Origin: a virus
Reading direction: 5' to 3' (one strand)
IMG/VR virus record: IMGVR_UViG_3300023174_000052
Span: 1 to 64,000 of that record
DNA: 64,000 nucleotides
Part shown: piece after piece, positions 45,165-64,000 of the stretch
Layout: each line of letters opens with the position of its first letter
How positions within the stretch are numbered: position 1 is the stretch's first letter
Position numbers and translations under genes: made by a program
The notes under the pieces: model-generated
Database searches by the model: none
Told to the model about the DNA's origin: nothing
What the model saw: only the letters and a program-made list of their open reading frames with translations

Positions 45165-45392
45165 GTTTAAATTCCTTTATAACTGTTCAGAAATTTTTCC
45201 CGAAATCACATGATTCGGGGGACTTTGACAAGACGTTCGGCGTACAATGCGCTGAACAGTTTGACTCGTGGGAATACACCCAAGATTCGCTCAACTAATA
45301 ATATCTATAACGAAATGAAGTCTCATTCAAAAGTTATTACACTTTTACAAATTATTACTATTGTTACTTTTTAAATATTATTTTGTCTCTCG

Positions 45393-48300
45393 TTATCCTA
45401 TCGTGAGTGTGCCGCCTGCAAATGTGAGAGTTGAATTGACTTTAAGGACCTTAGTATCAGAATAATTAGTCGCTTTTAAGTGTCCATTCTGCGTAATAGT
45501 GATTGAACCTGAAGCTATGGTATCGATGACTGGAATTTCGAGAACGCCTTCGTTGACAGAGACGCCACCCGTTAGCGTGTTTAGACCAGATAGCGTAACG
45601 GTTCCTGCTCCGTTCTTATTAAATAGACCAGAACCTGCCATGATGCCACCGTACGTTAATGTCTTTCCATTCTCAATATCGAAAGTAGAACTACCGTCTA
45701 CTCTTATTCCTCTGTTAGAGCTAATCTGGAACGATGCAGAAGCTACGAAACGACTTCCACCAGCGAATAGTAACTTATTCGCAGTCGCAGTTCCTGGCGT
45801 CGAACCAAAGACAGTATCACTCGAGATGCCTGAAGCTACAGTTAACGTACCGGTTACGAAAGTTGAACCTGCGTAGGTATTCGACGCGCCTAACGTGAGT
45901 CGACCTTGCGAACCAGAAACCATTATGGAGCCCGCTCCGGAGATTACACCGTTCTGTACCCAGTCACCTGGTCCCGAGAATCTAATCGCATCGCTATGAG
46001 CAGAACCCGTAATTCCCATAAGACCAGATACAGTCGTAGTTTGACCCGCTGGGGTTACGAGATTTCTTCCGATGCCGACTATTTCGATGTTGTTTGGAAT
46101 GCTGATGGACCCGCTGAACGTTACGCTATTTTGTTCATATGTAGAAGTCTGCCATCTTAGACCGGTAGAGGTCTTCGGTAATGAATTCTGGCCATTGAAA
46201 ATGTAAGAACCGTTATATGCGCCACCCATCATGATGTATAACGCGTCTAATCCCTGGTTATTACCGGCGTATTCTATGGTGTTAAGTTCGCGACCATCCC
46301 AACTTCTGGCAATGAAGTATTCGTTCGTGATAGAACCAGAGATATTTCCCGCGATTGTTAGTTTATTATAAACACCATATCCTGCGTCGTCCTTTTTGAA
46401 TAGTCTCTTTCTGCCTGTATTTGGAACGAGTATGATATTATTCGTTAAAGTTTCATTATTAGAATTTTCTATTATAATGTCAGAGTTTAACGAACCAGAA
46501 TAGACGATTGGTCCTGAACCAAAGGCATTGACTGAGTTGACGTATATTTTTGCTAACGCGACGTTCGCGTTGTGTATTACGCCGCCTGTGTGAGTATTTG
46601 TACCGCTTAGATACGTGTTATAAGCACCGTAAGACTTCTTCACAGGAGCCGTACCCGATAGGTTCGCAGCGATTGAAGCGTATAGATAATTATCTAATAT
46701 CGAAGTATCTAATGCGCTATCAGAGCTTAGCACCGTGGTCGTCGGAGTCGTCGAAAGGTTATGCATTACCTTCACACCCGACGCGCCACCTGCGGAATTT
46801 GTGTTACCAAGGTGTAGAGTACCCGCTGAGTGTGTCACTGGTAGGGTGAAAGTATTATTACCACCCAAAACCAATCGGCCCGTCCCAATCTTCGTAATGC
46901 CGCCGGAGCCTGTGATATTGAGCATCAAAGAACCAGTTAAACCCGCTGCGAGTCCTGAAATCTTCGATATATCGACTGGATAATTCGATGTGAACGTAGC
47001 ACCCTCTAACTGAAGCGTAACTCCCCGAGGTACTATTGGGTCTAATGTAGACGCGTTAATAACTGCCCCTGCAGTTCCACCTATCCTGGAGCTTGAAGGC
47101 GCCGCAAAAATGAGAGAACCGCTGAATCCTGGGCCGTATACTATACCGGAGCTTGCAGCTATGTCTGTAGTTCCTGAGTTAGTAAACGTTCCTGCGCCAG
47201 TGACGTATAGAACGCCTGTGACTTCTAAACGACCCGTGTGTACGACCGCCTTTCCTGATGGTACATCGATACCTCTATCGTATGCGCCAACCATCCATAA
47301 CTTTTGTGGTATGGTCATGTTAGCAGATAGTTTTAGGAGGTTATCTCTTGATGAACTACCTGGCCACGTCGTTATCATGGGAACGTTAGATAACGCGGGT
47401 ATAGAATTAGCAGATGCTATTTCGTATGCGTTAGTTACGTTATATCCTAATAATAAACTTGAAGCCGTAACTTGCTGTAAATTCGCAGAGACAACGTGTC
47501 GAGTATTTAGATTAGCGTTGGGTGATAGTAATAGAATCGTTTGACCTGGCCCACCGCCCGTCCAATTTCCAGTGTACGTAATTGAATGAAATGGTGCTCC
47601 ACCGTTTTGGAATGAAAACGCGTTTGTACCGTTAGTTACCCAAGTAGAGTTTCCAAAATCGACGTCTTGGGAAACTGTCCAAGATGTAGGATTCGTCGCT
47701 GGACCAATGTTATATGTGTTTATTCTATAGCTCTGTTGCTGGTTGAAATATAATCTGCCATTCCCCATTGCCTCAGCATTCAGGAACTGCACATTAGTAC
47801 CAGGAGACGCAGAGTTTCTGGAAGTTAATTTAAAACCACCGGTGCTTATATTATTTCCGCTGACGATAAGATTCGCGTTTGTTTCCGTTCCAGGGTCGAC
47901 TTCTAATATCTCTGAGCCGCTTAGGTTAGAACTGATGGCACCGTATAAAGCTTTATCGAACCAAGAAGTATCTAAATATTGACTCGCGCTCAATGCCGAA
48001 TTGTTCTTTATCTTAATAGTCTTCGTAGAACCGAGCTTGCCACCGTCTATGATGTCGAGCGTACCACCAGATACTTCGACGCCACCCGAGAATGTATTTG
48101 TTCCGCTTAATATTAATTTAGCAGCACCGACTTTCTTGAGTGGTCCTGCTCCTGTTATGTTTACTGATATCGTAGACGTCGCGTTCGTAACTGAAACTTC
48201 GCCGCCACCTGATGGCATGTTCCAAGCAGATGAACCATCAACAGTCCAAGAGTAATAAGGTGATGTCGAATCTCCGAGAGACATAGACGCAACCTGCGTG

Positions 48301-48452
48301 TCTCCACCTGAGATGGTAACAACACCAGCGGCATTCGAAGCGATATCGGTGCCGAGTACAGCGTTGTCACCTGATGAAGGAACTCCAGCGTCCCAATTAC
48401 CTGAACTGTTCCAAGAGCCCGCAGTCGTCTGTGTCCAATTTTTAGTAGCCAT
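45393..48452 (-). CDS. beta-helix protein with autotransporter-associated (PATR) repeats, putative receptor-binding protein
   Basis: K.G.G.L.L.G.NT..GG repeats; W..G.WN...NW N-terminus; no signal peptide or beta-barrel. Confidence 0.75.
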   Translation of the reverse strand: MATKNWTQTTAGSWNSSGNWDAGVPSSGDNAVLGTDIASNAAGVVTISGGDTQVASMSLGDSTSPYYSWTVDGSSAWNMPSGGGEVSVTNATSTISVNITGAGPLKKVGAAKLILSGTNTFSGGVEVSGGTLDIIDGGKLGSTKTIKIKNNSALSASQYLDTSWFDKALYGAISSNLSGSEILEVDPGTETNANLIVSGNNISTGGFKLTSRNSASPGTNVQFLNAEAMGNGRLYFNQQQSYRINTYNIGPATNPTSWTVSQDVDFGNSTWVTNGTNAFSFQNGGAPFHSITYTGNWTGGGPGQTILLLSPNANLNTRHVVSANLQQVTASSLLLGYNVTNAYEIASANSIPALSNVPMITTWPGSSSRDNLLKLSANMTIPQKLWMVGAYDRGIDVPSGKAVVHTGRLEVTGVLYVTGAGTFTNSGTTDIAASSGIVYGPGFSGSLIFAAPSSSRIGGTAGAVINASTLDPIVPRGVTLQLEGATFTSNYPVDISKISGLAAGLTGSLMLNITGSGGITKIGTGRLVLGGNNTFTLPVTHSAGTLHLGNTNSAGGASGVKVMHNLSTTPTTTVLSSDSALDTSILDNYLYASIAANLSGTAPVKKSYGAYNTYLSGTNTHTGGVIHNANVALAKIYVNSVNAFGSGPIVYSGSLNSDIIIENSNNETLTNNIILVPNTGRKRLFKKDDAGYGVYNKLTIAGNISGSITNEYFIARSWDGRELNTIEYAGNNQGLDALYIMMGGAYNGSYIFNGQNSLPKTSTGLRWQTSTYEQNSVTFSGSISIPNNIEIVGIGRNLVTPAGQTTTVSGLMGITGSAHSDAIRFSGPGDWVQNGVISGAGSIMVSGSQGRLTLGASNTYAGSTFVTGTLTVASGISSDTVFGSTPGTATANKLLFAGGSRFVASASFQISSNRGIRVDGSSTFDIENGKTLTYGGIMAGSGLFNKNGAGTVTLSGLNTLTGGVSVNEGVLEIPVIDTIASGSITITQNGHLKATNYSDTKVLKVNSTLTFAGGTLTIG

Positions 48453-48503
48453 AGTCCCTTCCTATTTTCTGTTCGAGTTAATGATTTAGATCACATTACT
48501 CTA

Positions 48504-48827
48504 TTAGAGTACGTTAGCCTTACGAACGACGACTTTGACTTTTAATCCTGTTGAATCGACGTAGGTAGCCTGGACTGCATAGCCTGCGGGTACTTTTATA
48601 TCGATCTTATCATTAAGATTAGCGAGCGCGGGAAGGACAGAACCTCCCCACTTTATTCCTGAACCGGTATCGAATATAGTATATGTCCCAGGTTGTGTAA
48701 TTATCGTCGACTGTAAATTCACAACCGGAGGAGCCGATCCGAGGTCGAGGAAGGAGGCGACCTCGACGGTGCCTCCTGATACTGGCGTAGAATTGGTCTT
48801 ATGTAAAGACCTTCTTATGAGAAGCAT
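48504..48827 (-). CDS. small adaptor protein (YTIFDT domain)
   Basis: clear paralog of the N-terminus of 59381-60961. Confidence 0.7.
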   Translation of the reverse strand: MLLIRRSLHKTNSTPVSGGTVEVASFLDLGSAPPVVNLQSTIITQPGTYTIFDTGSGIKWGGSVLPALANLNDKIDIKVPAGYAVQATYVDSTGLKVKVVVRKANVL

Positions 48828-48828
48828 A

Positions 48829-51297
48829 TTAAGCCTCGTTTCCAGATAGCGTGAATGATATGTCAGCTAATGTGGAATCAGCAGATGATGGCGCGACGAC
48901 TCGGACGATGTTGCCCGCGGCGTAAGATACCGAACCACCAGAGTAGGAGACTGCTCCGACGCTTGAACCAGCTGAGTAGACGATTGTTCCGACATTCGAG
49001 TACGAAATCGTTCCAGCCGTATTAACACCCTTCTGGATGTTGAAGGTCGCAGTCGCTGTCGCAGCAGTATCACAGTAAGCGTATCCGCCGTCGAGTGTAA
49101 CCGCGACGCTGACAGGAGCTCTGAAGATGACCTCGCCAGCTGCAGGCTTACCTGAGACATCACCACCGATATCGACAACTGATGAACCACCACCAGCGCC
49201 ACCACCGCCAGTTGTGTAACCGACGAGAGAAGCTAACGTGACTGGTAAGAAGGCAACAACGAAGTCGTCTTTCTGTAGCGCGAAGTTAAATGAAACCGAT
49301 GTACCGTCAGAAGCGATGTCGTAATCGTAGTTCGACGCGTCGAAAGACTTCGAAACGAGGAGTTGACCGTTTAGGTACAACTTGACGTTCTCGTCGCGAG
49401 CATCTGTGGGAACAGATGTGTAAGAACCAGAGAAGTGCGTTCCGTTGATTTTCTTGAGATCGCTGCCCAAGATCGAAGCGGGTGCTGAGACTGCGCTGTC
49501 GATCTTAAACATGAAGCGTGAATCGCCTGGGAGAGCAGCGGCTGTCGAGATGGCAGATAGTATTGAAACTTCGCCGAAGACAGTCTTAAAACGGTCCCAT
49601 TCTGCTGAGGCATCTGAGAGTTTGATACCGTCGGCATCTGACCAACCTGGAGATTTATTAGAATCCAAGAATTTTAGATCGGCGCCAGCTGCGATATGAA
49701 CGTCAGAAGAAGCAGAAGCGAAGAGCACACCATCGGCCGCTCTTAAATCTACGTTATCTGCATCGAGTGCGAAGTTTCCACCGACGTTGACATCCATGAC
49801 AGAAGCTACGCTAATTAAGAAATCGTCACCAACTTCGGCGACGAGGTCGCGAGCGGCTTCAACAATGATATCAGACGCAGCAGACATGCTAAGGTGCGAC
49901 GATGCAGAGACGAGTAAGTCTCCGCCGGTCTTTCCTACAACCTGCTTGCCTGATTTGTCGAGCGTAACGTCATCTCCGAAAGTAGAAGTGCTGTCGACGT
50001 CGAAAGTCGAAGCGAAGTGCGCCGCGGCCGAAACATCTAATCCACCTGTGACGTAGAGCTTCGAATCGTGGAACATGAGGTTCGCTTCGTCCTTAATCGA
50101 ACCGTCTGTATCGACGACGTAGAGACGCGTCGCAGTGTCGCCGTCAATCTTAACTGAATTTACAGTGATACCAGAGTTAAAGTCAGCAGCTCCATTGAAA
50201 GTAGATGCGCTGGCGACCGTTAGTGTACTCTGGAGGTTTAGAGCTCCTTGAACGTCTGCGGCGCCGTTAACGTCTAACGCTCCATTAACGTTTGCATCCC
50301 CAGAGAGGTATAGGTTCTTCCACTTAACCGAAGAAGAACCGAGGTCTTTAGAAGCGTCGGCTGAAGCGAGAAGGTTCTCTGAGAACACCCACGAATCCGT
50401 GGCATTATCCCACACTATCGTGTGATCTGTATTACCTTTGAGGATGATACCACCGCCGTTCGCAGACACGTCAGAGGGCGATGCAGTCGCGCCTAATTCG
50501 ATGTTTATGTCGTCTACAGTGACGACAGTCGAGTTAACAGTCGTTGTAGTTCCGTTAACGACAAGGTCACCGCCGACTGTTAATTTACCAGTAAACGTAC
50601 CGCTTACTGCAGATATATCTCTCGTTACTGTGAGGTCACGAGCGATAGTAACATCTTTTGAGAACGTCGAACCAGAGACGGTGAGTGTACCAGCAGAGTG
50701 AGAAATTTCTGCATCGACAGCGAGTCGCTTTCCCGTTCCGACGAGAGCTACTTTGCCAGCCGTGAGGTCTTCAACGATCGCAGAAGCTAATGTCGCATCA
50801 CCATCGACATCGAGAGTGCCCTTTGACGCTACATTACCTGTACCGACCGCTACAGTGAATTTGTCTGTACCGACAGTCAGGTCAGCACCGGTGACATCCA
50901 AACCAGCAAGAGCGTCGACGTTACCGACGAGTGTAGAGCCGAGAGCAACGGTTAAAGCACCACCAGCCTGAAGTGATGAAGAACCAGATATAACGCCAGC
51001 GTTTGTAATAGAAACTTTTTGAACGCCTGAACCGTCTTTTAAACTTAAAGAGCCCGAGAATACGGAAGTCGCATTCGAGAAGACACCAGCCTGAGCGTTT
51101 GTGAAGTCGCCCACACCGTGAATTCTTGAGATTGAACCTGCCATCGCAGCCAAGATGTCTTGGAGCGTCGAAGCATTGATACTATTCGAAGCTAATGGGC
51201 TCGAATAATCGCTAACTGCCATGTCAGAGATAGAAGCTATGGAGCCAGAAACAGACTTTAATCTAATTTGACTGCGTGGTGTAATTGCGGTAGCCAT
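48829..51297 (-). CDS. virion fibre-like protein
   Basis: 822 aa; paralog of the 836-aa gene plus C-terminal GKPA..VVAPSS domain. Confidence 0.7.
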   Translation of the reverse strand: MATAITPRSQIRLKSVSGSIASISDMAVSDYSSPLASNSINASTLQDILAAMAGSISRIHGVGDFTNAQAGVFSNATSVFSGSLSLKDGSGVQKVSITNAGVISGSSSLQAGGALTVALGSTLVGNVDALAGLDVTGADLTVGTDKFTVAVGTGNVASKGTLDVDGDATLASAIVEDLTAGKVALVGTGKRLAVDAEISHSAGTLTVSGSTFSKDVTIARDLTVTRDISAVSGTFTGKLTVGGDLVVNGTTTTVNSTVVTVDDINIELGATASPSDVSANGGGIILKGNTDHTIVWDNATDSWVFSENLLASADASKDLGSSSVKWKNLYLSGDANVNGALDVNGAADVQGALNLQSTLTVASASTFNGAADFNSGITVNSVKIDGDTATRLYVVDTDGSIKDEANLMFHDSKLYVTGGLDVSAAAHFASTFDVDSTSTFGDDVTLDKSGKQVVGKTGGDLLVSASSHLSMSAASDIIVEAARDLVAEVGDDFLISVASVMDVNVGGNFALDADNVDLRAADGVLFASASSDVHIAAGADLKFLDSNKSPGWSDADGIKLSDASAEWDRFKTVFGEVSILSAISTAAALPGDSRFMFKIDSAVSAPASILGSDLKKINGTHFSGSYTSVPTDARDENVKLYLNGQLLVSKSFDASNYDYDIASDGTSVSFNFALQKDDFVVAFLPVTLASLVGYTTGGGGAGGGSSVVDIGGDVSGKPAAGEVIFRAPVSVAVTLDGGYAYCDTAATATATFNIQKGVNTAGTISYSNVGTIVYSAGSSVGAVSYSGGSVSYAAGNIVRVVAPSSADSTLADISFTLSGNEA
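50301..50391. repeat. direct repeat shared with 43811-43901
   Basis: 82/91 nt identical. Confidence 0.85.
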
Positions 51298-51407
51298 GTA
51301 AGAACCCCTTATGTCTTTGAGTTAATATTCAATCAGACTGCGACTGGAATCGAGGTTCCAAATTTCCATTGCATGCAAACGCTAGCAATTTATACGTAAA
51401 TATCATC

Positions 51408-51467
51408 ACTAAATTTTACAATCCTAAGTTTTTAGTTTTTACTAACGAAAGAATTGTAAAATTTAGT
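51408..51467. repeat. 15-bp AT-rich inverted repeat with 30-nt spacer
   Basis: ACTAAATTTTACAAT / ATTGTAAAATTTAGT, intergenic. Confidence 0.6.
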
Positions 51468-51487
51468 AATATCACTATCTAATAAAA

Positions 51488-51763
51488 TCAGACGTCTTCT
51501 GCGTCGGAAAGCTCTGGTAGTAATTTCGCAGCTTCATAACTTTGTTTCCATAAATTGTCGCTCGAAGATAGGTCGTACACGAAATTACAGTCGTAGAAAC
51601 AAATAACGCGATCGTCGCCTTTCATTTCGCGAGCGAAAAGAACAGCTCTCACGTTTCTATTTCCCGTGTCCTCTACCTTTCCTTCGAAAAGCATGTGCTC
51701 GAAAGAAATGTAGCAACCCTTGTATTCCTGATCATTAAGAGTGATGTCTTTTTTAAGTGCCAT
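51488..51763 (-). CDS. small tail-fibre-associated protein
   Basis: MAL.K..Y..N..KQ.YE..K.LPE..DAEDV pattern typical of fibre-linked phage ORFs; SD AGGAG. Confidence 0.55.
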   Translation of the reverse strand: MALKKDITLNDQEYKGCYISFEHMLFEGKVEDTGNRNVRAVLFAREMKGDDRVICFYDCNFVYDLSSSDNLWKQSYEAAKLLPELSDAEDV

Positions 51764-51784
51764 TTTTGCTCCTTTATTGTGAAA

Positions 51785-57700: not shown

Positions 57701-59353
57701 CGCAGAAGACGCAAGCGTACTACCTGCGGCTAACACTACAGTACCGAATCCGAGCGCCTGCGTTGCTGTACCGCTTCCTGTTCCGATTGTCAAAGTACCA
57801 GAGTTTACCAATCCACCTGCAAATGTGTTAGAATTATTTGCGATTGTAAGTCTGGCGATGGGCTCGACGACTAACGCACCGGCACCCGTTAACGTACCAG
57901 ATTGAACCCATTCGCCAGGACCGACGATTGAAGTTGCCGACCACGCAAGATTCGCACCATTGATCCAGCGATATAGAGGACCCGAAAGTGTGTGTATACC
58001 TGTAGCCGTGACTATACTACCAGACGAAACGTTTAATTTCGTGCCGATGCCGGAGGAGCTGGCGAGATATGCAGTATTAAGCGCGTTTGGAACTGTCATA
58101 GAACCAGAAAAGATCCAGTTCGCAGAGTTTGAAGCTGTTGCATAAGTAGAGGGGTAATATCCAATCATTTGCGCATTCGAGTTCGGAAGAGAAGACGACC
58201 CGATGAAATGAATAGAAGCGTTGGAATAATAACCAGGATATATCACGCCATATAAAGAGTTGTTATTACCAGATAGTTTAACTGTCAAAAGTCTATCGAA
58301 GCCACTGGCTGCATTATAACCCAAATACACAGGAGACGTATTACCAGGTTGCGTAATCAAGCGACCTGTATAGACATGCGTCTGTGGTTGGGTAATTGTT
58401 CCCGCGAGACTAGAGATGATTTTCGCGCCTGTACCTGCCGTGCCTGTCCAACTAACGTCTCCAGACATCGTGTGAATCTGCGTCGACGAATCCTGGAGGA
58501 AATATAAATAGCTGCCCGCTCCTCCGGTGCTAGTACCTTTGTTCCTAAATTCTATTGAAGCAGAACCTATGTTTCTGGACCCTGAAGTATAGAGATAGTT
58601 ATAAAATGTCGAATCTAATCGTATACCACCTGAATTGCTTAAATAAGAGTAGGTTCCAGTGAGGTAGACGACTGTGTTAAGCCCCGAAGCTGACCCAGAC
58701 GCGATATAGTTATCAAATATAATCTGTCCTGTTCCCGTAACTGGCGAGTGAACATAGAACGTAGGCGCGCCAGCGTAAGAAGACGAGATAACGCCAGAGC
58801 CAGAAAGGTATATACCACGATTAGCAGGAATAACGTGAGATATAACGTTAGGATAGATTAGCGTCGCCAAGTTATTGAAGATGATATTCGACGCGCTAAG
58901 ACTTGTTGGGACTGCGCCCAAAGACGTATCAGCAGCGATTCTCAAAGCACCGCTTAGGATTGCAGTACCACCTGTGTACGTGTTAGCAGTACCACTCAGG
59001 GCCAAGTAGTTACTATAAGAAGACGCCGTGACTATTAAAGCAGAGTTTCCTGAGATCGTGTTCCAAATGAACGACGGCGCGTAATCGACGTATACTGACG
59101 TACCCGTACCGAAGGTGACGATATTCGCAGAACCAGTAAGCTGCCAGGGATAAAAAGTCGCTGTGGGATCGGCGAATTTAATCGCACCCGGTTGCGCGTT
59201 TGTAGTCGATAACGTGACTACACCAGCGGCGTCAGAGGCAATATTCGTATTAAAATAGACATCATCACCTGCTACTGGAAGTGTTGATAAGTTCCAGTTA
59301 GTCGTAGTATTCCACGCACCTGCTACTGTTGGTACCCAAGTCTTAGTCGCCAT
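51785..59353 (-). CDS. giant (2522 aa) beta-helix protein with PATR repeats and four internal repeats
   Basis: paralog of the 1019-aa gene (MATK.W..G.WN...NW); repeated NRGI.L.G and GEW.QSGTL.G. Confidence 0.8.
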   Translation of the reverse strand: MATKTWVPTVAGAWNTTTNWNLSTLPVAGDDVYFNTNIASDAAGVVTLSTTNAQPGAIKFADPTATFYPWQLTGSANIVTFGTGTSVYVDYAPSFIWNTISGNSALIVTASSYSNYLALSGTANTYTGGTAILSGALRIAADTSLGAVPTSLSASNIIFNNLATLIYPNVISHVIPANRGIYLSGSGVISSSYAGAPTFYVHSPVTGTGQIIFDNYIASGSASGLNTVVYLTGTYSYLSNSGGIRLDSTFYNYLYTSGSRNIGSASIEFRNKGTSTGGAGSYLYFLQDSSTQIHTMSGDVSWTGTAGTGAKIISSLAGTITQPQTHVYTGRLITQPGNTSPVYLGYNAASGFDRLLTVKLSGNNNSLYGVIYPGYYSNASIHFIGSSSLPNSNAQMIGYYPSTYATASNSANWIFSGSMTVPNALNTAYLASSSGIGTKLNVSSGSIVTATGIHTLSGPLYRWINGANLAWSATSIVGPGEWVQSGTLTGAGALVVEPIARLTIANNSNTFAGGLVNSGTLTIGTGSGTATQALGFGTVVLAAGSTLASSASVANISNTLVSTGTVTVDVLNATTLTALVQAQGNATTINKIGLGTFRYVVSPNVNVNQVAGVATGVSALTSVLTASADSDFGSIPASYDSLFFPLSGSNWLITNSFTSNANRGFLLLKDWNIAINSSTTFAIGAPVNGTYPVIKTGSGNLQLNNSFITAIKHTSGNLILSGATASDVGVRRSFELSGSNLIISGTTFIGSNRDITTNGDLSIDVDAGAFLYVSSSLSSSIASASFIKTGAGRVYLPDLSTTNFNRSFTVSSGSVVLTTETSTGPVPATLSTASIVLNNSATLIYTNPILGGHAIPANRGIYLSGSGVISSSYIGSPTFYVNSPVMGTGQIVFDNYISSGSVTAVSTFVYLTGTYSYLSNSGGIRIDSTSYGYLYSSGSRNIGSASIEFRNKGIYVGAGGSDFYFLQDPSTQIHTMSGDVSWTGATGTGAKSISRMIGNVTQPQTHIYSGRLITQPGNTSIVYLGYNNASTGLDRLLTVKLTGDNSGLYGQIFPSYGGNNSIHFIGSSSLPNSIAQMIGYYASAYTTASNSANWIFSGSMTVANQIESSNYGANGVGAKMNVAAGSTIIATGRHGLTGTLIRQGTSPVIAWNATSFVGTGEWIQSGTLAGAGALVVEPGSRLTLANNSNISTGPISASNSVVTIAANGGTNSFGATPGSPTTSLYLNNATLAVSSSFSFGNTRRLQIDAGVATFDIPTGMTLTVPQGLDLGWTGASLRIIGGGTLTTPRVPYLNTGSVAGWTSRAVYGDADFGALPASVDPSNITFPLGISDIYTNNVQTFIISGTRGINLQGDGIFSSSIAAAPAPNYYVDSTVTGSGQIIFNNGVASGSATVVDTAVYLIGANSALNNAGGIRIDATGFATLTTSGSRTMGSGTVEFRNKGLASGLVGTSYLGFFQDPAKTTDTIINDIKFTGPSGGATSHKHIAYMRGALTTPQTYIFSGRLTNQVDSTSNFSLGSIGGLTSGFDRLINVVLTGNNSGLYGPIWVGDSGNISVTFVGSQSLPHPSAMLRAVHVNTYTTASNSANWIFSGSMTVPNLIESSNNGTVGAKLNVPSGNTVIHTGRHGLTGSLTRQGSGANFAWSATSFVGPGEWIQSGTLAGAGGLVIEPGACVTFANASNTFAGGLINSGTLTIGAGLTSGTLGTGQINLVDGSTLNISSSLILNPSKLYMTGTINLNISSGSIVSLALGSYVAGTSATINKRGPGTFEYVTSSGVTFNVLEGTVDVKSGSSNIVTASADSSFGATPSVLNPIYFVLSGSSWRITDTFSINQNRGIVLNADSTISVDQNKTLSILAPVTGTSALVKTGGGNLSLVGLSTQNSIYSTSGSLILSGVDTSADQATAVRSIQLTGSNLVVSGTTFLSVNRRLQTDGNLNVDTSVGAFLYVSSSVSSSIASASFTKTGGGRVYLPDLSTTNFKGLFTVSSGSVVLAAETSAGPVPATLSTASITLNNSATLIYPNATSHVIPATRGIYLSGAGIFSSSYTAAPTYHMLSPVTGTGQLIFDNYIASGSATAISTYVYLTGTNSGINNTRGIRIDSTNVGYLYVSGSRTIGSASIEFRNKGTYSAGAGNYLYFMITPGVQVHTMSGDISWTGAKGTGVRYLSYLNGTFTQPQTHIYSGRLSSQSGSINTTYIGYSSTAVNSGLSTFNIKFTGNNSNLYGFIYPAYYYNAAMTFVGSQSLPNSGSQLRGYHYSTYTTASSAANWIFSGSMTVPNSLESSYYGSTVGIGAKLNVPTGNTVIHTGRHGLTGSLTRYGAGTALAWSATSFVGPGEWIQSGTLAGAGSVVIEPSSRLTIANNSNLFTGFITASNSVLTIAANGSDNSFGATPGTAQARLFLQNATLASSASLTLSTTRNVGLTGSVTFDVQSGKTFIIPSQVAGTANITMKGGGLLILSGSTNVTGSVNVLTGTVRFENTFAIPSGSITVQNSGSVILPSSVNKFGTGNLNLILSGGNVSFI

Positions 59354-59380
59354 GTTTTCCCCAAAAAAATGTTATTATAA

Positions 59381-60961
59381 CTATCTAGCTACGATGAATC
59401 CAATTTTAGGACGATAGGTAACAGTCCCAGTCCCTGCTGTCGCTAGTGTATATCCTGATGTATCGGCTCTTGCATAATACATATTTCCATTCAAAGAATA
59501 TTCAAGAGACGCGCCTCCTGAAACGAATGCCGTATTCGAGAAGACCACTTTCGTCAATAGATTAGAAGTTCCGTCCCAAGTAAAAGAATTCGTAAAATTA
59601 AATTTTGGAGTTATTAACGAGGTGTAAGTTGCGACGTCTGGTACGAAGGGGCCAACTCTTTCGTAAACCGATGTGTACCCAGATGTGACAGACGATGTCA
59701 TCGTACTACCTTGCGAAGTATGTTGCATTCCGATTACGAAGTTTTTCCATCCACCCGACAAAGAAGAGACCCATGGCGAAGCGGCGTTTAAACAGATGTA
59801 CATACCTGTTATTCTATCGTTGGCATTAATGCCAGCTGCCGATAATTCCGCTGCCGTGAATACGAACTCGGTTGCACATGACCAATAGTATGAATCAAGC
59901 GGCCCAACGTCGGTCGAGGAACCAGCTACGGTTACAGTATTAACTGGTACTGCAGCAACTATGTCATTTATGTAAATCGTAGTACTCGCGAGAGTGTCAC
60001 CAGTATAAGAGCCTTGTTTTAAACTAAGTCTAAAACTTTCCTGACCCTCTGTCGCACCGTCAAAATTGATAGACTTTTCTAAATAGCCTAATTTAGTAGT
60101 AGCGTTTACGGCTATAGTTCCAGACAATTGATTATCAACGAAATCAGCTGCTGTGATACTTCCTGTTAAGCTTTCAATTACGTAATAATAATTCGCGTCG
60201 AGTGTTCCGAGTCCCATGTTGACGAACGACGCGGTTAAATATAGCGTGTTACCTTCTGATATGTTAGAAGAATTGACTGTTATAACAGGAGATTTTGAAA
60301 CGTCTTGAACAGTGATTACAGGAGTCGAACCTACTATTTTATTAAAAGAACTATCGTTGCTAATTTTAAACTGAAATAACTCGTCGCCTTCTGTGTTTAG
60401 GTCCAATCTAAACTTTTTAGAGAATGAACCTGTTCCATTGACGAGTAAAAAGCTACCCGTCGACGTGCGATCTTCGAAATCTGCGCCATTTAATACAGAC
60501 GCCGAATAATAAAGCGTCCTAGCCTGTAATTCGGTAGACGCGTCGTAGATTATAATCGTATTTCCTTCTCTTGTAGTATTTCCAGCAGAAGACATTACGC
60601 TGTCAAACGTTAATGTATGCGAATCTTCGGTCTCGGTAGCTTTTCTAAGTCCTACTTTAACTTTTTTACCAGTAGAATCTACATACGGTTCGGTTATGAC
60701 AGCGTATCCTGAGTTTGGTACGATGATCAATTTATTTGTCAGAGCGCTTCCAGCAGGTAAGTACGAACCGTTCCAAGTTATTCCAAGTGTAGTATCAAAT
60801 ATTGTATAAATTCCCTCCTGACTCGCGAAATCCCTGGGGAGATTGACGCGTGTCAAAGCGTTGTTTAACGCAAGAGCGCCAGTGACTTGAAAAACGCTAC
60901 TTGATATTTCGTTTTGATAATTTGAAACGGTACTGTAAATACCTTTGAAAACGCTCTGCAT
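59381..60961 (-). CDS. adaptor (YTIFDT domain) with Ig/Calx-beta-like domains and a C-terminal FTWDGTSNL domain
   Basis: start moved to ATG 60961; TEG.E.F motif occurs twice. Confidence 0.65.
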   Translation of the reverse strand: MQSVFKGIYSTVSNYQNEISSSVFQVTGALALNNALTRVNLPRDFASQEGIYTIFDTTLGITWNGSYLPAGSALTNKLIIVPNSGYAVITEPYVDSTGKKVKVGLRKATETEDSHTLTFDSVMSSAGNTTREGNTIIIYDASTELQARTLYYSASVLNGADFEDRTSTGSFLLVNGTGSFSKKFRLDLNTEGDELFQFKISNDSSFNKIVGSTPVITVQDVSKSPVITVNSSNISEGNTLYLTASFVNMGLGTLDANYYYVIESLTGSITAADFVDNQLSGTIAVNATTKLGYLEKSINFDGATEGQESFRLSLKQGSYTGDTLASTTIYINDIVAAVPVNTVTVAGSSTDVGPLDSYYWSCATEFVFTAAELSAAGINANDRITGMYICLNAASPWVSSLSGGWKNFVIGMQHTSQGSTMTSSVTSGYTSVYERVGPFVPDVATYTSLITPKFNFTNSFTWDGTSNLLTKVVFSNTAFVSGGASLEYSLNGNMYYARADTSGYTLATAGTGTVTYRPKIGFIVAR

Positions 60962-60962
60962 A

Positions 60963-63900
60963 TTATGACTCCAAACCGATGAGTGTAAACGCTGGGCTGC
61001 TAAACGTCGCATCGACGCTGGACGGTGCGACGACTCTTAAAACGTCTCCACGAGATACGTTCTGTGAACCGCCTGTCCACGCGACCGTGCCGCTTGCAGC
61101 TCCTGCAGCGTATGTAATCGTTCCGATATCACTATAAGTGATTGAACCAGCAGAATAAACGCCTTTTTGTATCTTCAATACGACCTGTGATGTCGCAGCG
61201 ATATCTACGTAAGCGTATCCACCATTAAACATCGCCGTTCTCGGCATGATTAACTTGAATACAACTTCACTTGAAGCTGGTTTACCATTGACGGTCGCGC
61301 ATAGATCGTAACCAATCGTCGCGATATAGTTATCGGTCGAAGCAACTGACAACGGAGTGATTGCTGAAATCGTATCATCTACGTCGAAGTTAAACTTAAA
61401 CGTGATCGTTGAACCATCCCATGCAACATCGTAATCGTAATCTGTCGCGTCGAAAGACTTCGAAACGAGAAGCTGACCGTTTAGATACATTCTAATATTT
61501 TCATTTCTTGAGCTGCCTGGCGTCGCCAAGAATGAATTCGTGAACGTCGTACCACCTGGTCTCGTGAGAGAACTACCATTTATCGTTACTGGTCCTGTGA
61601 CTGGCGAAGCGACCTTGTAGAGATGTAATCCGTCGCCGAATCCACTCGCACCAGCGGAAATCGCAGAAATAATCGATCTTTGACCGAACGTATTAACGTA
61701 ACTCTGCCATTCAGCTGAGCTATCTGCTAACGATATTCCCGCGTCAGACCATGTTCCTGCCATGTACTGATCTGAGAATTCGAGGGTCGATCCTGACATT
61801 CTAACTGCGACCGAACCATATGAACCGGTTAAGTTGCCGCCGCGTAACGTTAATATTCCACCCGTGAGTAGATCAACGCTCGCATCAGCATTAGCGCCCG
61901 ATCCAACGAAAGCCATCGTAGAACCACTAATGTTAACGCTTCCAGAAGTTATAACGTTTCTGTTAGATAGCGTTATCGTTGTAAGGCCATCAGACGCTCT
62001 TATTTTATTTCCATCGAGTTCTAAATCGCCGGCTAAAATAGTGCGCTTTTGTCCGTCACCAGAAAGAGTAATAACTGTGTCGTTGTTAGAATCTCTTATG
62101 TCGTTACCCATGACTCTAAGATCGGCCGCAACCTTGAGAGAAGCGGTAAGCGTAGGAGCATAGGCAGTGACGGTTATAGATCCATTTGTGAATGATCCAC
62201 CATTCGCATCACTTATCGTTATCGTGCCAGATACGCCTGGTGCAACCGTGATCGTAGAACCACCGCTATACGTTTGATTATCCCACGAAGTAACTGCTAC
62301 TAAAGCATTAGATAGTGAAGATAAAACGCTCGGTAATACGAACGAACGTTGCGTTGAAGTCGAAGCGAGCGTAATAACTTCCGTTATCCAAGAAGCAGGG
62401 AAAGTGATAGTTCCTTGATCGCCCGAATATGTTTGCGTATCACCATCGATAGCGAACGTGAGATTCTGAGTCGAATAAACAGGAACACCATCATCGAATG
62501 TAATTCTTGTAACGCTTGCTGAATCTTTGATATCGTTGCCAGAAACAATTAAGTCGCCGGCGACGGTTACAGTTCCCGCATTATTACCGATCACTACTGC
62601 GGTTGAAGCGGTTACGAAGTTAAACGAAGCCTGTGTCGTTGTAATGTCGCCACCGTTAATAGCAACGTCATTATAGAAGAGCGCGTTTGAACCAGTAATG
62701 TTTCCACCGATCTGAAGATCGGACGAACCCGAGATAATTCCGAGCGTTGTTAATGTACCAGAAACTATCTCATTACCAGAGACAGTTATGCTTGAACCAG
62801 TCAACTGGATAGCGACTGCGCCTGTCGAACTTTGAATATCATTACCAGCGACCTGTAGATCGCCAGCCAATGTGACAAGCCCCGTTGATGCTCCGATACT
62901 AACTGCCGTAGCAGCTCCTGCCATATTAACGGTCGTCGCAACAGTATTAAATAACGTCGCTGTAGTTTGCGATGTTATAACGTCTCCGCCATTGACTGCA
63001 ACGTCTCCTGCAACGATAACGTCGCGACCTGACATCGTAATTGTGACCGAACCGTCAGAGGCTTTAATATCATTACCCGCGATTTTTAAATCGCCGGCGA
63101 CGACGACGTCAGACGCTGCATTACCGATATTAACGCCTGAAGTTGCTCCACCCGCGATATTGACAGACGTTGCGTTTGCATTAAACACAGTAGCTGTCGT
63201 TTGAGTCGTCGTGATATCGCCGCCATTAAGCGCAAGATCACCATACAACATCATGTTTGAACCAGTGATATTTCCACCGATCTGTAATCCACCGGATCCT
63301 GATATCGCGCCAGCTGCAGTGACTTCAAAATATTTCGTAGAAGTATTATAGTCACCAACCAAAATGCTATACGGCGTAGCTAGACCTCTTTCTGCCCCTA
63401 ATCTAAGCTGTCGACCGATTTCGGTACCACCGTTACCGAATCCACCGTTAGCTGAAACTGACTGCATAGAGAATATGCCACCGTCTGCATTAATAGCGCC
63501 GTCGTTATAGATAGTAACACCAGACGACCCGAATCCCCCGCCGATCTTCGCATTATCAGCATCGATCATACCAGAGATCTTGATATCTCCTGAACCTGAA
63601 ATGTGGCTTCCCACCAACAGTCTTGAAGAGCCTGAAATAACTCCTATTGCCGTTAATGTGCCCGAAATGATTTCATTTCCAGAAACAGTGACGCTTGAAC
63701 CAGTTAACTGGATAGCAACTGCTCCTGTCGAACTCTTGATATCATTACCGGATACCTGCAAATCACCCGCGATTGTTACATCACGAGCAGACATGGTAAT
63801 TGTTGCTGTGCCGTCGGAAGCCTTGATATCGTTACCAGTAACCTGTAAATCTCCCTTGACTTCGACGTCTGCACCCAGAAGCTCTAGAGCGTCGGCCGTA

Positions 63901-64000
63901 GAAGATTTAATCGTATTGCCAGTTACTTTAATATCGCCAGCGAGCGTTGTAAGTTTGTTACCGTCGCCAGACATCGTGATGACAATGTCACCGTTTCCGT
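60963..64000 (-). CDS. virion fibre-like protein (5' end outside the window)
   Basis: frame open to the window edge; GDL.V.GNDI repeats; C-terminal domains paralogous to the 822-aa gene. Confidence 0.7.
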   Translation of the reverse strand, partial: GNGDIVITMSGDGNKLTTLAGDIKVTGNTIKSSTADALELLGADVEVKGDLQVTGNDIKASDGTATITMSARDVTIAGDLQVSGNDIKSSTGAVAIQLTGSSVTVSGNEIISGTLTAIGVISGSSRLLVGSHISGSGDIKISGMIDADNAKIGGGFGSSGVTIYNDGAINADGGIFSMQSVSANGGFGNGGTEIGRQLRLGAERGLATPYSILVGDYNTSTKYFEVTAAGAISGSGGLQIGGNITGSNMMLYGDLALNGGDITTTQTTATVFNANATSVNIAGGATSGVNIGNAASDVVVAGDLKIAGNDIKASDGSVTITMSGRDVIVAGDVAVNGGDVITSQTTATLFNTVATTVNMAGAATAVSIGASTGLVTLAGDLQVAGNDIQSSTGAVAIQLTGSSITVSGNEIVSGTLTTLGIISGSSDLQIGGNITGSNALFYNDVAINGGDITTTQASFNFVTASTAVVIGNNAGTVTVAGDLIVSGNDIKDSASVTRITFDDGVPVYSTQNLTFAIDGDTQTYSGDQGTITFPASWITEVITLASTSTQRSFVLPSVLSSLSNALVAVTSWDNQTYSGGSTITVAPGVSGTITISDANGGSFTNGSITVTAYAPTLTASLKVAADLRVMGNDIRDSNNDTVITLSGDGQKRTILAGDLELDGNKIRASDGLTTITLSNRNVITSGSVNISGSTMAFVGSGANADASVDLLTGGILTLRGGNLTGSYGSVAVRMSGSTLEFSDQYMAGTWSDAGISLADSSAEWQSYVNTFGQRSIISAISAGASGFGDGLHLYKVASPVTGPVTINGSSLTRPGGTTFTNSFLATPGSSRNENIRMYLNGQLLVSKSFDATDYDYDVAWDGSTITFKFNFDVDDTISAITPLSVASTDNYIATIGYDLCATVNGKPASSEVVFKLIMPRTAMFNGGYAYVDIAATSQVVLKIQKGVYSAGSITYSDIGTITYAAGAASGTVAWTGGSQNVSRGDVLRVVAPSSVDATFSSPAFTLIGLES

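What the first reader, a model, noticed from the sequence alone, without database searches (positions are those of the whole stretch)
45393..64000. Duplicated three-gene appendage module in which the beta-helix cap seems to be a separate upstream protein
Seen: the order [fibre ending in the GKPA..VVAPSS domain] > [YTIFDT adaptor] > [MATK.W beta-helix protein] occurs twice (64000-51785 and 51297-45393). Both beta-helix proteins have autotransporter-type PATR repeats but no signal peptide or barrel, and stop abruptly at a L-x-x-x-GG-x-h-x-h rung (LTFAGGTLTIG, LILSGGNVSFI). Both adaptors begin with V-x-x-x-L-x-L..VNL..G-x-Y-T-I, which resembles the segment that follows that rung and caps the helix in cellular passenger-like proteins. 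Inference: the phage captured a bacterial adhesin and split off its C-terminal cap as a docking adaptor, allowing plug-in receptor-binding subunits by strand complementation.
Basis: partly seen in the sequence, partly recalled or inferred. Interest (0 to 1): 0.7.

Follow-up and report, generated by a model that had tools for sequence, protein, structure and literature searches.

The report
Phage beta-helix with separately encoded cap
An uncultured giant phage carries two copies of a fibre gene cassette in which a bacterial-adhesin-type beta-helix lacks its usual end-cap, and the cap is made as a separate small protein that is predicted to snap onto the open end of the helix, a natural split not described before but so far supported only by computation.

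Summary
On the minus strand, the order fibre, YTIFDT protein, MATK.W beta-helix occurs twice, and each pair is homologous (BLASTP E 1e-73, 1e-19, 1e-34). A third copy lies on a metagenome contig.

Corrections:
- Cassette 1 runs past the window end.
- Its "adaptor" is a 526-aa multidomain protein; only its first ~110 residues are the shared domain.
- Only helix 2 passes Pfam's PATR cut-off.

The main interpretation is supported in silico.
- **Sequence:** its profile aligns colinearly with a "GYDQL...GNDVVLT" module that ends beta-helix units in bacterial adhesins (P 0.003; 0 of 150 shuffles reach it).
- **Binding:** a controlled complex prediction stacks its residues 17-42 in parallel on the last 18 residues of the helix (ipSAE 0.86; best of 3 controls 0.00).

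New here: bacterial units are tandem, start-helix-cap. The phage cap-to-helix gene junction matches the bacterial cap(n)-to-start(n+1) junction, so the pair looks like an out-of-register excerpt cut at an inter-unit linker.

Docking of the cap to the fibre knob was not tested, and that knob occurs in other phages without caps. New variant of a known kind; interest 0.6.

The parts
60963..64000 (-). Fibre 1. The window holds the C-terminal 1011 aa. The whole gene runs to genome position 64367 (1134 aa, P0005).
   Evidence: ORF list and translation. The N-terminus is shared with fibres 2 and 3. The C-terminal 286 aa are 45% identical to fibre 2.
60966..61334 (-). C-terminal knob of fibre 1 (GKPA...VVAPSS domain, about 120 aa).
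   Evidence: profile hit at residues 1025-1147 of the open frame.
59381..60961 (-). Cap protein 1 (526 aa). It starts 1 nt after the fibre 1 stop codon.
   Evidence: The start MQSVFKG is shared with P0127, P0129 and P0131.
60626..60961 (-). Cap (YTIFDT, autochaperone-like) domain of cap protein 1, residues 1-112.
   Evidence: 48% identity to the 107-aa protein, E 1e-19. In the otherwise poor full-length model this part has pLDDT about 70-80 and the same strand pattern.
59384..59944 (-). C-terminal domain of cap protein 1 (residues 340-526). It is probably a beta-sandwich. This is a lead only.
   Evidence: The ESM Atlas model has TM 0.82 to a domain of GEVED/PKD surface proteins, and the nearest feature clusters are viral. 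My own AF2 model of this part is of low confidence.
51785..59353 (-). Helix 1 (2522 aa): beta-helix protein made of four tandem segments, with no internal or terminal cap.
   Evidence: Segments 141-830, 831-1385, 1309-2005 and 1994-2453 are 51-56% identical to each other. No cap-profile hit was found in this frame.
51488..51763 (-). 91-aa ORF between the cassettes, function unknown.
   Evidence: only faint PHROG hits.
48829..51297 (-). Fibre 2 (822 aa).
   Evidence: PHROG virion structural and tail fibre families match.
48832..49200 (-). C-terminal knob of fibre 2 (GKPA...VVAPSS domain).
   Evidence: phrog_7049 tail fiber protein and two unnamed PHROGs match residues 707-819. Relatives occur in five IMG/VR contigs.
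48504..48827 (-). Cap protein 2 (107 aa, cap domain only). It starts 1 nt after the fibre 2 stop codon.
   Evidence: AF2 model pLDDT 79. The fold search points to the autochaperone ends of autotransporter passengers.
48702..48779 (-). Residues 17-42 of cap protein 2: the predicted rung(s) that stack on the helix end.
   Evidence: Interface list of the complex prediction.
45393..48452 (-). Helix 2 (1019 aa): PATR beta-helix without signal peptide, barrel or cap.
   Evidence: PF12951 52.9 bits and TIGR02601 57.7 bits. 180 cellular relatives were found.
45396..45449 (-). Last 18 residues of helix 2 (1002-1019): the open terminal rung predicted to receive the cap.
   Evidence: Interface residues 222-239 of the 239-aa chain. 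This end is conserved in position with the end of helix 1.
42654..45164 (-). Fibre 3 (836 aa): a paralogue with the same N-terminus but no knob, and not followed by cap or helix genes.
   Evidence: no knob-profile hit.

Best explanation
The phage is an uncultured giant phage. The record is 175.6 kb and CheckV estimates it as about 52% complete. It carries two paralogous cassettes, and each encodes three proteins:

1. A long fibre with a shared N-terminal region and a knob of about 120 aa at the C-terminus.
2. A protein whose first 105 or so residues fold like the autochaperone or cap that normally closes the C-terminal end of a single-chain beta-helix.
3. A cytoplasmically made PATR beta-helix of bacterial adhesin type that ends on an open rung.

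The cap protein adds its own N-terminal rung(s), residues about 17-42, in parallel onto the last rung of the helix. The hairpins that follow close the end of the helix. The cap therefore acts in trans as folding template and permanent end-piece.

In cassette 1 the same cap domain carries about 400 further residues: Ig-like repeats and a terminal beta-sandwich. In that cassette the cap also works as a docking plug that places a distal domain on the helix tip.

The gene pair probably arose from a tandem-unit bacterial adhesin, (start-helix-cap)n. The excerpt was taken one cap out of register and cut at the short inter-unit linker.

Status of each step:
- Shown: the gene order, the pairwise homologies, PATR membership of helix 2, and the absence of a cis cap.
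- Predicted: the cap fold and cap-helix stacking.
- Inferred: the virion location, the origin, and any receptor-binding role.
For: Duplication and homology:
- A third cassette with the same order lies on contig Ga0247723_1018377.

Cap fold:
- The AF2 model has pLDDT 79.

Sequence:
- The adaptor profile against 250 copies of the bacterial GYDQL...GNDVVLT module gives hhalign score 20.6, P 0.0033, over 77 colinear columns.
- Column-shuffled controls give 11.0 +/- 2.3 with a maximum of 18.3; 0 of 150 reach the real score.
- Helix C-terminus plus cap, joined only inside a script, aligns through the junction to the bacterial unit profile: score 76.6, E 3.8e-11.
- The controls for that test were: helix alone 57.8; helix plus shuffled caps 63.5 +/- 2.1, with 0 of 40 reaching 76.6.

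Gene-order colinearity:
- 201 of 372 bacterial cap modules are followed within 40 aa by the W..W..NW start motif, which is the N-terminus of the phage helices.
- Cap plus helix N-terminus aligns continuously across that junction, E 7.9e-8.

Binding:
- Complex prediction ipSAE was 0.86, 0.88 and 0.86; the best of 3 controls was 0.00.
- In the tool's calibration the pass mark was reached by 58 of 80 solved complexes and 2 of 110 mismatched pairs. These counts hold only roughly because I supplied my own alignments.
- The runs share at least 96% of their contacts, and the partner pLDDT is at least 87.
- The interface is helix residues 222-239 of 239 with cap residues 17-42, in parallel register.

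Other points:
- The cap is an N-terminal module on proteins of 101 to 1980 aa.
- Autochaperones supplied in trans rescue BrkA, Ssp, EspP and Pet (PMC5767081).
Against: - No HMMER-level similarity links the cap to any cellular protein. The exhaustive profile search of 1.8 billion representatives gave only about 9 true hits, all of the phage type. No Pfam, NCBIfam or PHROG family matched.
- The complex prediction may pass by likeness to solved single-chain passengers, as the tool warns for halves of a split gene. The helix alignment had only 2 rows.
- Nothing shows that any of these proteins is in the virion, or how the helix would be attached to it.
- The cap gene is translationally coupled to the fibre gene (1-2 nt spacing), not to the helix gene (27-115 nt spacing).
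Confidence: 0.62

Rival explanations
1. The small protein is a bridge. Its cap half plugs into the helix end, and its other face binds the fibre's C-terminal knob. In this way the helix hangs as a side branch or tip on the fibre and serves as a swappable receptor-binding subunit.
For: - In this lineage the knob, the cap gene and the helix gene always travel together: 3 of 3 cassettes.
- The knob-less paralogue fibre 3 has neither cap nor helix after it.
- Fibre and cap genes are separated by only 1-2 nt in all three cassettes.
- The helix N-terminus is the ordinary start motif of cellular units, not a phage-specific docking domain. The cap protein is therefore the only obvious phage-specific connector.
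Against: - The knob family occurs in 243-aa fibre proteins of five other viral contigs with no cap gene within 6 kb. The knob therefore does not need a cap protein.
- No fibre-cap interaction was computed, because only one complex job was available.
- In cassette 1 the cap protein continues into 400 aa of its own distal domains, which fits a tip piece better than a bridge.
Confidence: 0.25
2. The small protein is a fibre assembly or tip protein for the upstream fibre, in the manner of T4 gp38 or the Tfa proteins of lambda and Mu. It has nothing to do with the helix. Its likeness to a helix cap is a general beta-rich pattern, and the complex prediction is a false pass.
For: - Its position immediately after a fibre gene with 1-2 nt spacing is the classical place for such genes.
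- Sequence similarity to cellular caps is weak: P 0.003, and none by HMMER.
Against: - No match to any PHROG or Pfam tail fibre assembly family.
- The fold hits are specifically the C-terminal ends of passengers.
- Both artificial concatenations align through the junctions, better than all shuffled controls.
- The two unrelated partners and the one unrelated helix substitute all scored 0.00 against 0.86.
- The helices end at the same open rung and have no cap of their own.
Confidence: 0.1
3. The cap acts only transiently, as a trans autochaperone that nucleates folding of the helix from its C-terminal end in the cytoplasm and then leaves. It is not a subunit of the finished appendage.
For: - Autochaperones template folding and can work in trans (PMC5767081).
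- Cleaved or separate folding helpers are common for phage fibres and spikes (PMC3357383, found; abstract only read).
Against: - In cassette 1 and in P0127, P0129 and P0131 the cap domain is fused to large Ig-like and beta-sandwich regions, up to 1980 aa. This makes sense for a structural piece, not for a released helper.
- An uncapped beta-helix end would be aggregation-prone (general knowledge, not tested here).
Confidence: 0.15

Closest known systems
Autochaperone (AC) domain at the C-terminal end of type Va autotransporter passengers (IcsA AC, PDB 3ML3; BrkA junction region; Pfam AC_1 PF18883, Pertactin PF03212)
   Same: - All-beta unit that continues and closes the C-terminal end of a single-chain right-handed beta-helix.
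- The model of the 107-aa protein superposes on these regions of IcsA, Ssp, pertactin, Hap, Hbp, Ag43, IgA1 protease and VacA.
- AC domains can work in trans in engineered constructs (PMC5767081).
   Different: - Here the cap is a separate gene product by nature, not by engineering.
- It is made in the cytoplasm of a phage-infected cell.
- There is no signal peptide, barrel or outer-membrane step.
- There is no sequence match to PF18883 or PF03212 at E <= 0.1.
Tandem-unit PATR/TIGR02601 surface adhesins of bacteria: 'autotransporter-associated beta strand repeat' proteins (examples named come from Gemmata, Isosphaeraceae, Verrucomicrobia and Pyrinomonadaceae) whose units end in a GYDQL...GNDVVLT module
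   Same: - The helices share PATR repeats (up to 43% identity over part of the C-terminal 320 aa).
- They share the start motif (A)TKTW..G..W...NW...P..GD.
- The cap aligns colinearly with the end module.
- The phage gene junction equals the bacterial inter-unit junction.
   Different: - The bacterial proteins are single polypeptides with signal peptides and sorting signals, and they have a cap after every unit.
- The phage has one polypeptide per part, and no cap after any of the four repeated segments of helix 1.
- The bacterial end module has no Pfam or NCBIfam model in the scans done.
Phage fibre and tailspike folding helpers: C-terminal intramolecular chaperone domains (K1F endosialidase, phi29 gp12; P22 tailspike discussion in PMC3357383) and separately encoded assembly or tip proteins (T4 gp38, Tfa)
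   Same: A C-terminal element is needed for folding of an elongated beta-rich adhesin, and a helper gene sits next to a fibre gene.
   Different: - Those systems serve trimeric fibres or trimeric beta-helices, and the families are unrelated in sequence (no PHROG or Pfam match).
- Here the client is a monomer-type single-chain PATR helix, and the helper is predicted to add a rung.
Branched receptor-binding complexes of large phages, in which N-terminal docking domains attach several spikes to each other (CBA120 TSP1-4, phiKp24, RaK2; PMC9700779 and PMC10253068 found, abstracts only)
   Same: A conserved N-terminal docking module carries variable distal parts, and there are several paralogous appendage genes in a row.
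   Different: - The docking principle proposed here is completion of a beta-helix by a cap, not the XD-type domains of those spikes.

Membership tests
PATR / TIGR02601 beta-strand-repeat proteins | Repeats matching PF12951 or TIGR02601 above the curated cut-off | tested here: met
   Helix 2 scores PF12951 52.9 bits (cut-off 27) and TIGR02601 57.7 bits (cut-off 19.85). Helix 1 alone scores 19.4 bits, below the cut-off, but is homologous to helix 2 (E 1e-34).
Classical (type Va) autotransporter | N-terminal Sec signal peptide | tested here: not met
   Both helices start MATK(N/T)W, which aligns to the residues just after the signal peptide of bacterial relatives. No dedicated signal-peptide predictor was run.
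Classical (type Va) autotransporter | C-terminal beta-barrel translocator (PF03797) | tested here: not met
   No PF03797 hit in either helix, in either cap protein or in the fibres at E <= 0.1.
Classical (type Va) autotransporter | Autochaperone in cis at the end of the passenger | tested here: not met
   Both helices stop on a rung at the same alignment column. Neither the cap profile nor the adaptor profile hits the helix frames.
Autochaperone domain of beta-helical passengers (fold of IcsA AC, 3ML3) | Fold similarity to solved AC regions | tested here: inconclusive
Autochaperone domain of beta-helical passengers | Sequence match to Pfam AC_1 (PF18883) or Pertactin (PF03212) | tested here: not met
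   No Pfam family at E <= 0.1 for either cap protein.
Autochaperone domain of beta-helical passengers | Sits on and continues the C-terminal rung of the helix | tested here: inconclusive
   Predicted only. ipSAE was 0.86 against a best control of 0.00. Helix residues 222-239 contact cap residues 17-42 in parallel register. The pass may reflect likeness to solved single-chain passengers.
Bacterial GYDQL...GNDVVLT unit-end module (no database family found) | Profile-level sequence similarity over the whole module | tested here: inconclusive
   - hhalign P 0.0033 over 77 columns; 0 of 150 column shuffles reach the score.
- HMMER finds nothing significant, although the two cap frames rank 2nd and 5th of 736 frames in the phage genome.
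Bacterial GYDQL...GNDVVLT unit-end module | Position: after the last PATR-type rungs and directly before the next W..W..NW start motif | tested here: met
   Both junctions are reproduced by the phage parts. Helix C-terminus plus cap scores 76.6 (E 3.8e-11), and cap plus helix N-terminus scores 55.5 (E 7.9e-8). Both alignments run through the junction. The first junction is in trans and the second lies across an intergenic gap.
Phage tail fibre assembly or tip proteins (Tfa, gp38 type) | Match to a known family of such proteins | tested here: not met
   No PHROG family at E <= 0.01 and no Pfam family at E <= 0.1 for either cap protein.

The most novel reading that the evidence does not exclude
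The cap domain is a general, exchangeable connector: a natural two-piece beta-helix in which any protein carrying the 105-residue cap at its N-terminus can be plugged onto an open helix end. Phages of this lineage would use it to swap distal host-recognition modules. Cap proteins of 101 to 1980 aa already exist. The same principle would explain how out-of-register excerpts of tandem adhesins can be domesticated. If a cap and a helix were kept in one chain in the gene order seen here, the cap could only close another molecule's helix, which would give head-to-tail chains.
Probability: 0.3. Interest if true: 0.75.

Novelty: new variant of a known kind. Interest (0 to 1): 0.6.

Why it matters
**Folding question.** Single-chain beta-helices of autotransporter type are thought to fold from a C-terminal autochaperone that is part of the same chain. 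Trans action has been shown only with engineered fragments. A natural system in which helix and cap are separate genes would be a clean model for template-driven beta-helix folding without a membrane or secretion step.

**Phage biology.**
- It would add a new docking principle to the known ways in which large phages build modular host-recognition organelles.
- PATR-type helices appear absent from cultured phages: there was no match in 50,697 GenBank phage records.

**Evolution.** The out-of-register colinearity with tandem bacterial adhesins gives a concrete, testable route by which a phage can turn an internal piece of a host surface protein into a two-subunit appendage.

**Possible use.** A self-assembling cap and helix pair could also serve as a protein-joining tool.

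All of this rests on predictions and needs bench confirmation.

Tried and rejected
**Searches that found nothing**
- Megablast of cassette 2 against GenBank phages gave no match.
- tblastn of helix 2 against the same collection gave no match.
- Pattern scans for the cap protein found none in IMG/VR viral contigs and none in one genome per prokaryote species. The metagenome scan gave one contig.
- A direct HMMER search of the adaptor profile against 120 cellular PATR proteins found nothing. The similarity is visible only at profile-profile level.
- A profile search of PDB sequences with the cap alignment gave only chance hits with E >= 0.9.
- A PDB sequence search with the fibre C-terminus gave nothing useful.
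- The promoter and terminator scan of 44900-64000 gave counts equal to the shuffled expectation, so no operon boundaries could be drawn from it.
- No cis cap, no further cap genes and no further PATR genes were found in the 175.6-kb record.

**Approaches that failed**
- I tried to locate where the helix C-terminus aligns in bacterial relatives by BLAST. This was uninformative, because PATR periodicity lets it align anywhere.
- The full-length model of cap protein 1 was too poor to search with (pLDDT 45.7). Its C-terminal domain assignment rests only on the ESM Atlas lead.

**Hits rejected as artefacts**
- The multi-stretch hits P0132 to P0139 of the exhaustive search are repeat proteins: LRR, Ig-like and others.
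- P0004 looks like a chimera of an RmlD-like N-terminus and the cap C-terminal half, from a 738-bp contig. I left it out of the alignments.

**Tool availability**
The context of P0008 (80% identical helix on a 290-kb contig) and of the other cap homologues could not be read.

**Idea considered and dropped**
- Programmed frameshifting from fibre into cap protein. The cap frames are open only 13 and 25 codons upstream of their ATG, and all homologues start at the same methionine.

Full report
**Context**

The window is the first 64 kb of a 175,594-bp viral record that CheckV rates about 52% complete. It encodes:
- a DnaE-type polymerase, a GroEL, and thymidylate-synthase-like and carbamoyltransferase genes;
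- a run of fibre-like genes on the minus strand.

Its polymerase is under 31% identical to that of any GenBank phage. This is an uncultured, distant giant phage.

**The observation**

Reading the minus strand from high to low coordinates:
1. a 1167-aa fibre-like protein outside the window (genome 64846-68349);
2. fibre 1 (60963-64367, 1134 aa);
3. cap protein 1 (59381-60961, 526 aa);
4. helix 1 (51785-59353, 2522 aa);
5. a 91-aa ORF;
6. fibre 2 (48829-51297, 822 aa);
7. cap protein 2 (48504-48827, 107 aa);
8. helix 2 (45393-48452, 1019 aa);
9. fibre 3 (42654-45164, 836 aa).

The three gene pairs are homologous:
- Fibres: 45% identity over their last 286 aa, E 1e-73.
- Cap domains: 48% over 91 aa, E 1e-19.
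- Helices: 38% at the N-terminus and 37% over the last 291 aa, E 1e-34.

Further details:
- The helix C-termini align to the last residue and stop at the same column, on LTFAGGTLTIG and LILSGGNVSFI.
- Helix 2 is a PATR/TIGR02601 protein by curated cut-offs. Helix 1 is below Pfam's cut-off but is clearly its paralogue. It is built of four tandem segments that are 51-56% identical.
- Neither helix has a barrel domain or a leader peptide.
- In both cassettes the cap gene starts 1 nt after the fibre stop codon. The helix gene follows after 27 or 51 nt.
- A 2.4-kb metagenome contig shows the same order. It has a fibre C-terminus with a collagen-like Gly-X-Y stretch and the same knob, then after 2 nt a 107-aa cap protein (56% identical), then after 115 nt a protein starting MATKTW.

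The main correction is that the cassette-1 "adaptor" is a 526-aa protein.

**How rare the cap protein is**

A word-indexed search found four near-length relatives. An exhaustive HMMER profile search of 1.8 billion representatives gave 14 hits, and about nine of them are real:
- stand-alone proteins of 101-107 aa;
- three proteins of 430, 532 and 1980 aa that carry the domain at residues 1-109, followed by repeated Ig-like segments and a conserved C-terminal domain.

The remaining hits are repeat-protein artefacts. No cellular PATR protein was hit. No Pfam, PHROG or NCBIfam family matches.

The cap domain is thus an N-terminal module on proteins of very different length, not merely a small adaptor.

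**Is it a helix cap? Fold evidence**

The AF2 model of the 107-aa protein has pLDDT 79 and nine strands. Foldseek against the PDB gave nothing significant, although pertactin, a metagenomic beta-helix domain and IcsA were among the first hits.

| Rank | Hit | Region or score |
|---|---|---|
| 3-11 | Ssp | 534-642 |
| | VacA p55 | C-terminal end |
| | IgA1 protease | 893-989 |
| | pertactin | 470-572 |
| | Ag43 | 417-562 |
| | Hap | 876-976 |
| | Hbp | 971-1077 |

**Is it a helix cap? Sequence evidence**

Bacterial relatives of the helix often contain a module with consensus GYDQL.V.G.V.L.GA.L...P..G..F.II.NDG.D.V.G.F.GLPEG...F.ISY.GG.GNDVVLT. A search with that module from P0012 returned 901 proteins. 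In the 120 listed plus the earlier set, I found 372 near-complete copies in 122 proteins, at all relative positions.

Test 1, adaptor alignment (12 rows) against 250 non-redundant copies:
- hhalign score 20.6, P 0.0033, over 77 colinear columns that cover nearly the whole of both domains.
- Column-shuffled versions of the bacterial alignment scored 11.0 +/- 2.3 with a maximum of 18.3. None of 150 reached the real score.
- The reversed alignment scored 12.3.

Test 2, the cap's place in the bacterial unit:
- 201 of the 372 bacterial modules are followed within 40 residues by a W..W..NW motif.
- That motif is the very N-terminus of the phage helices. MATKNWTQTTAGSWNSSGNWDAGVPSSGD aligns to ATKTWNGTVNNLWSNAGNWSGGVPVAGD and similar sequences, either right after bacterial signal peptides or at internal unit starts.
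- Bacterial proteins are therefore tandem arrays of start-helix-cap units.

Test 3, concatenations made only inside a script and aligned to a profile of 120 bacterial unit ends:

| Query | Score | Result |
|---|---|---|
| Helix C-terminus + cap | 76.6 (E 3.8e-11) | aligns through the junction, query 25-219 |
| Helix part alone | 57.8 | alignment stops at residue 88 |
| Helix + reversed cap | 63.1 | no gain from the cap part |
| Helix + column-shuffled caps | 63.5 +/- 2.1, max 72.4 | 0 of 40 reach 76.6 |
| Cap + helix N-terminus (gene order) | 55.5 (E 7.9e-8) | aligns continuously across the junction |

Two conclusions follow:
- The helix ends exactly where the bacterial cap module would begin.
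- The order cap gene then helix gene is what one gets by excerpting a tandem array one cap out of register and cutting at the inter-unit linker. No permutation is needed.

**Do they bind?**

The single complex job used the last 239 residues of helix 2 (aligned with helix 1) and the cap alignment.
- ipSAE was 0.86, 0.88 and 0.86. The three controls all scored 0.00: two unrelated partners and one unrelated substitute for the helix.
- By the tool's calibration the pass mark is reached by 58 of 80 solved complexes and 2 of 110 mismatched pairs. These counts hold only roughly here, because my own alignments were used.
- The runs share at least 96% of their contacts, and the partner pLDDT is at least 87.
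- The confident contacts join helix residues 222-239 (the last 18) to cap residues 17-42, 51-52 and 56. The residue offset is constant at about 201-202. That is parallel stacking, as for the next rung of the same helix.
- The tool cautions that such a pass may come from likeness to solved single-chain structures. It shows that the two pieces look like one beta-helix with its cap, not that they bind in a cell.

**Other parts**

- The record holds PATR repeats only in the two helix genes and the cap domain only twice. With the bacterial cap HMM nothing is significant, but the two cap frames rank 2nd and 5th of 736 frames.
- The C-terminal 187 residues of cap protein 1 resemble, in the ESM Atlas model, a beta-sandwich domain of GEVED/PKD surface proteins (TM 0.82). 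They also resemble stand-alone viral proteins. My own model of the full protein was poor.
- The fibre knob matches PHROG tail-fibre families and viral clusters. It recurs at the C-terminus of 243-aa proteins next to a host-specificity-type tail protein in five IMG/VR contigs that have no cap gene.
- Fibre 3 shares the N-terminus with fibres 1 and 2 but has no knob and no cap or helix genes after it.

**Mechanism**

Best reading, at about 0.6: cap and helix form a two-piece beta-helix. The cap serves as trans template and end-piece. In cassette 1 it also serves as the plug that carries distal domains. This agrees with published trans-rescue by autochaperones (PMC5767081).

Three questions remain open:
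- Does the cap leave after folding?
- Is the cap really a helper for the fibre?

Virion location, the attachment point and any receptor are inferred only.

**Novelty**

- Nothing on PATR proteins or autochaperone-like caps in phages turned up in four literature searches.
- No GenBank phage record has a relative of helix 2.
- The components belong to known kinds: PATR helices, autochaperone-type caps and modular phage fibres. The natural split, the cytoplasmic setting and the out-of-register origin are new. I rate it a new variant of a known kind, interest 0.6.
The scan has not reported it on other DNA.

Noticed in passing
window 45165-45392 and 51298-51487; L004 4368-4845 (genome 64368-64845): The leaders upstream of fibre 1 and fibre 2 share short conserved blocks: AGTCG(A/C)AGTCT, and GGGGTTCT just before the start codon. 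The leader of fibre 3 shares little with them. I only aligned the three regions.
   Followed up: partly
window 42654-45164: Fibre 3 passes Pfam's cut-off for Bactofilin (PF04519, 35.6 bits against a cut-off of 27.9). Its shaft is therefore probably a bactofilin-like beta-helix. It shares the N-terminal ~100 aa with fibres 1 and 2.
   Followed up: no
L006 2-871 (contig Ga0247723_1018377): The fibre of the third cassette has a collagen-like Gly-X-Y run (about 25 residues) just before the knob. This suggests that these fibres are trimers.
   Followed up: no
protein P0129 (1980 aa, from the representative search): This is a giant relative of cap protein 1. It has the same N-terminal cap and the same C-terminal domain, with many inserted repeats of an Ig-like segment and a second repeated segment of about 150 aa between them. 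The cap-bearing protein can therefore grow to fibre length.
   Followed up: partly
protein P0004 (102 aa, 738-bp ENA contig): It has an RmlD-like N-terminal half joined to the C-terminal half of the cap protein (77% identity over half of the query). It is probably an assembly chimera, but possibly a recombinant.
   Followed up: no
L012 8001-12578 (IMGVR_UViG_3300015615_000629, 572-kb viral contig) and L013 8001-9515: Other large viral contigs encode beta-helix-like proteins that begin with the same W..W..NW..P..GD start motif: MPTKTWASASNSTWNSSGNW and MATTTTISAGAWNTAGNW. In L012 every ORF called upstream is on the opposite strand, and no cap-profile hit was found in either locus. The start motif is therefore more widespread in phages than the cap.
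   Followed up: partly
L004 4846-8349 (genome 64846-68349): Just beyond the window lies a fourth fibre-like gene (1167 aa). It has many repeats of about 60 aa (LTGSLT.L.DGS.YL.AG..I.LSTGS.GSITI) and three C-terminal NGQLL...DY domains. It matches no Pfam family.
   Followed up: no
window 51488-51763: A 91-aa ORF of unknown function lies between helix 1 and fibre 2. It has only faint PHROG hits.
   Followed up: no
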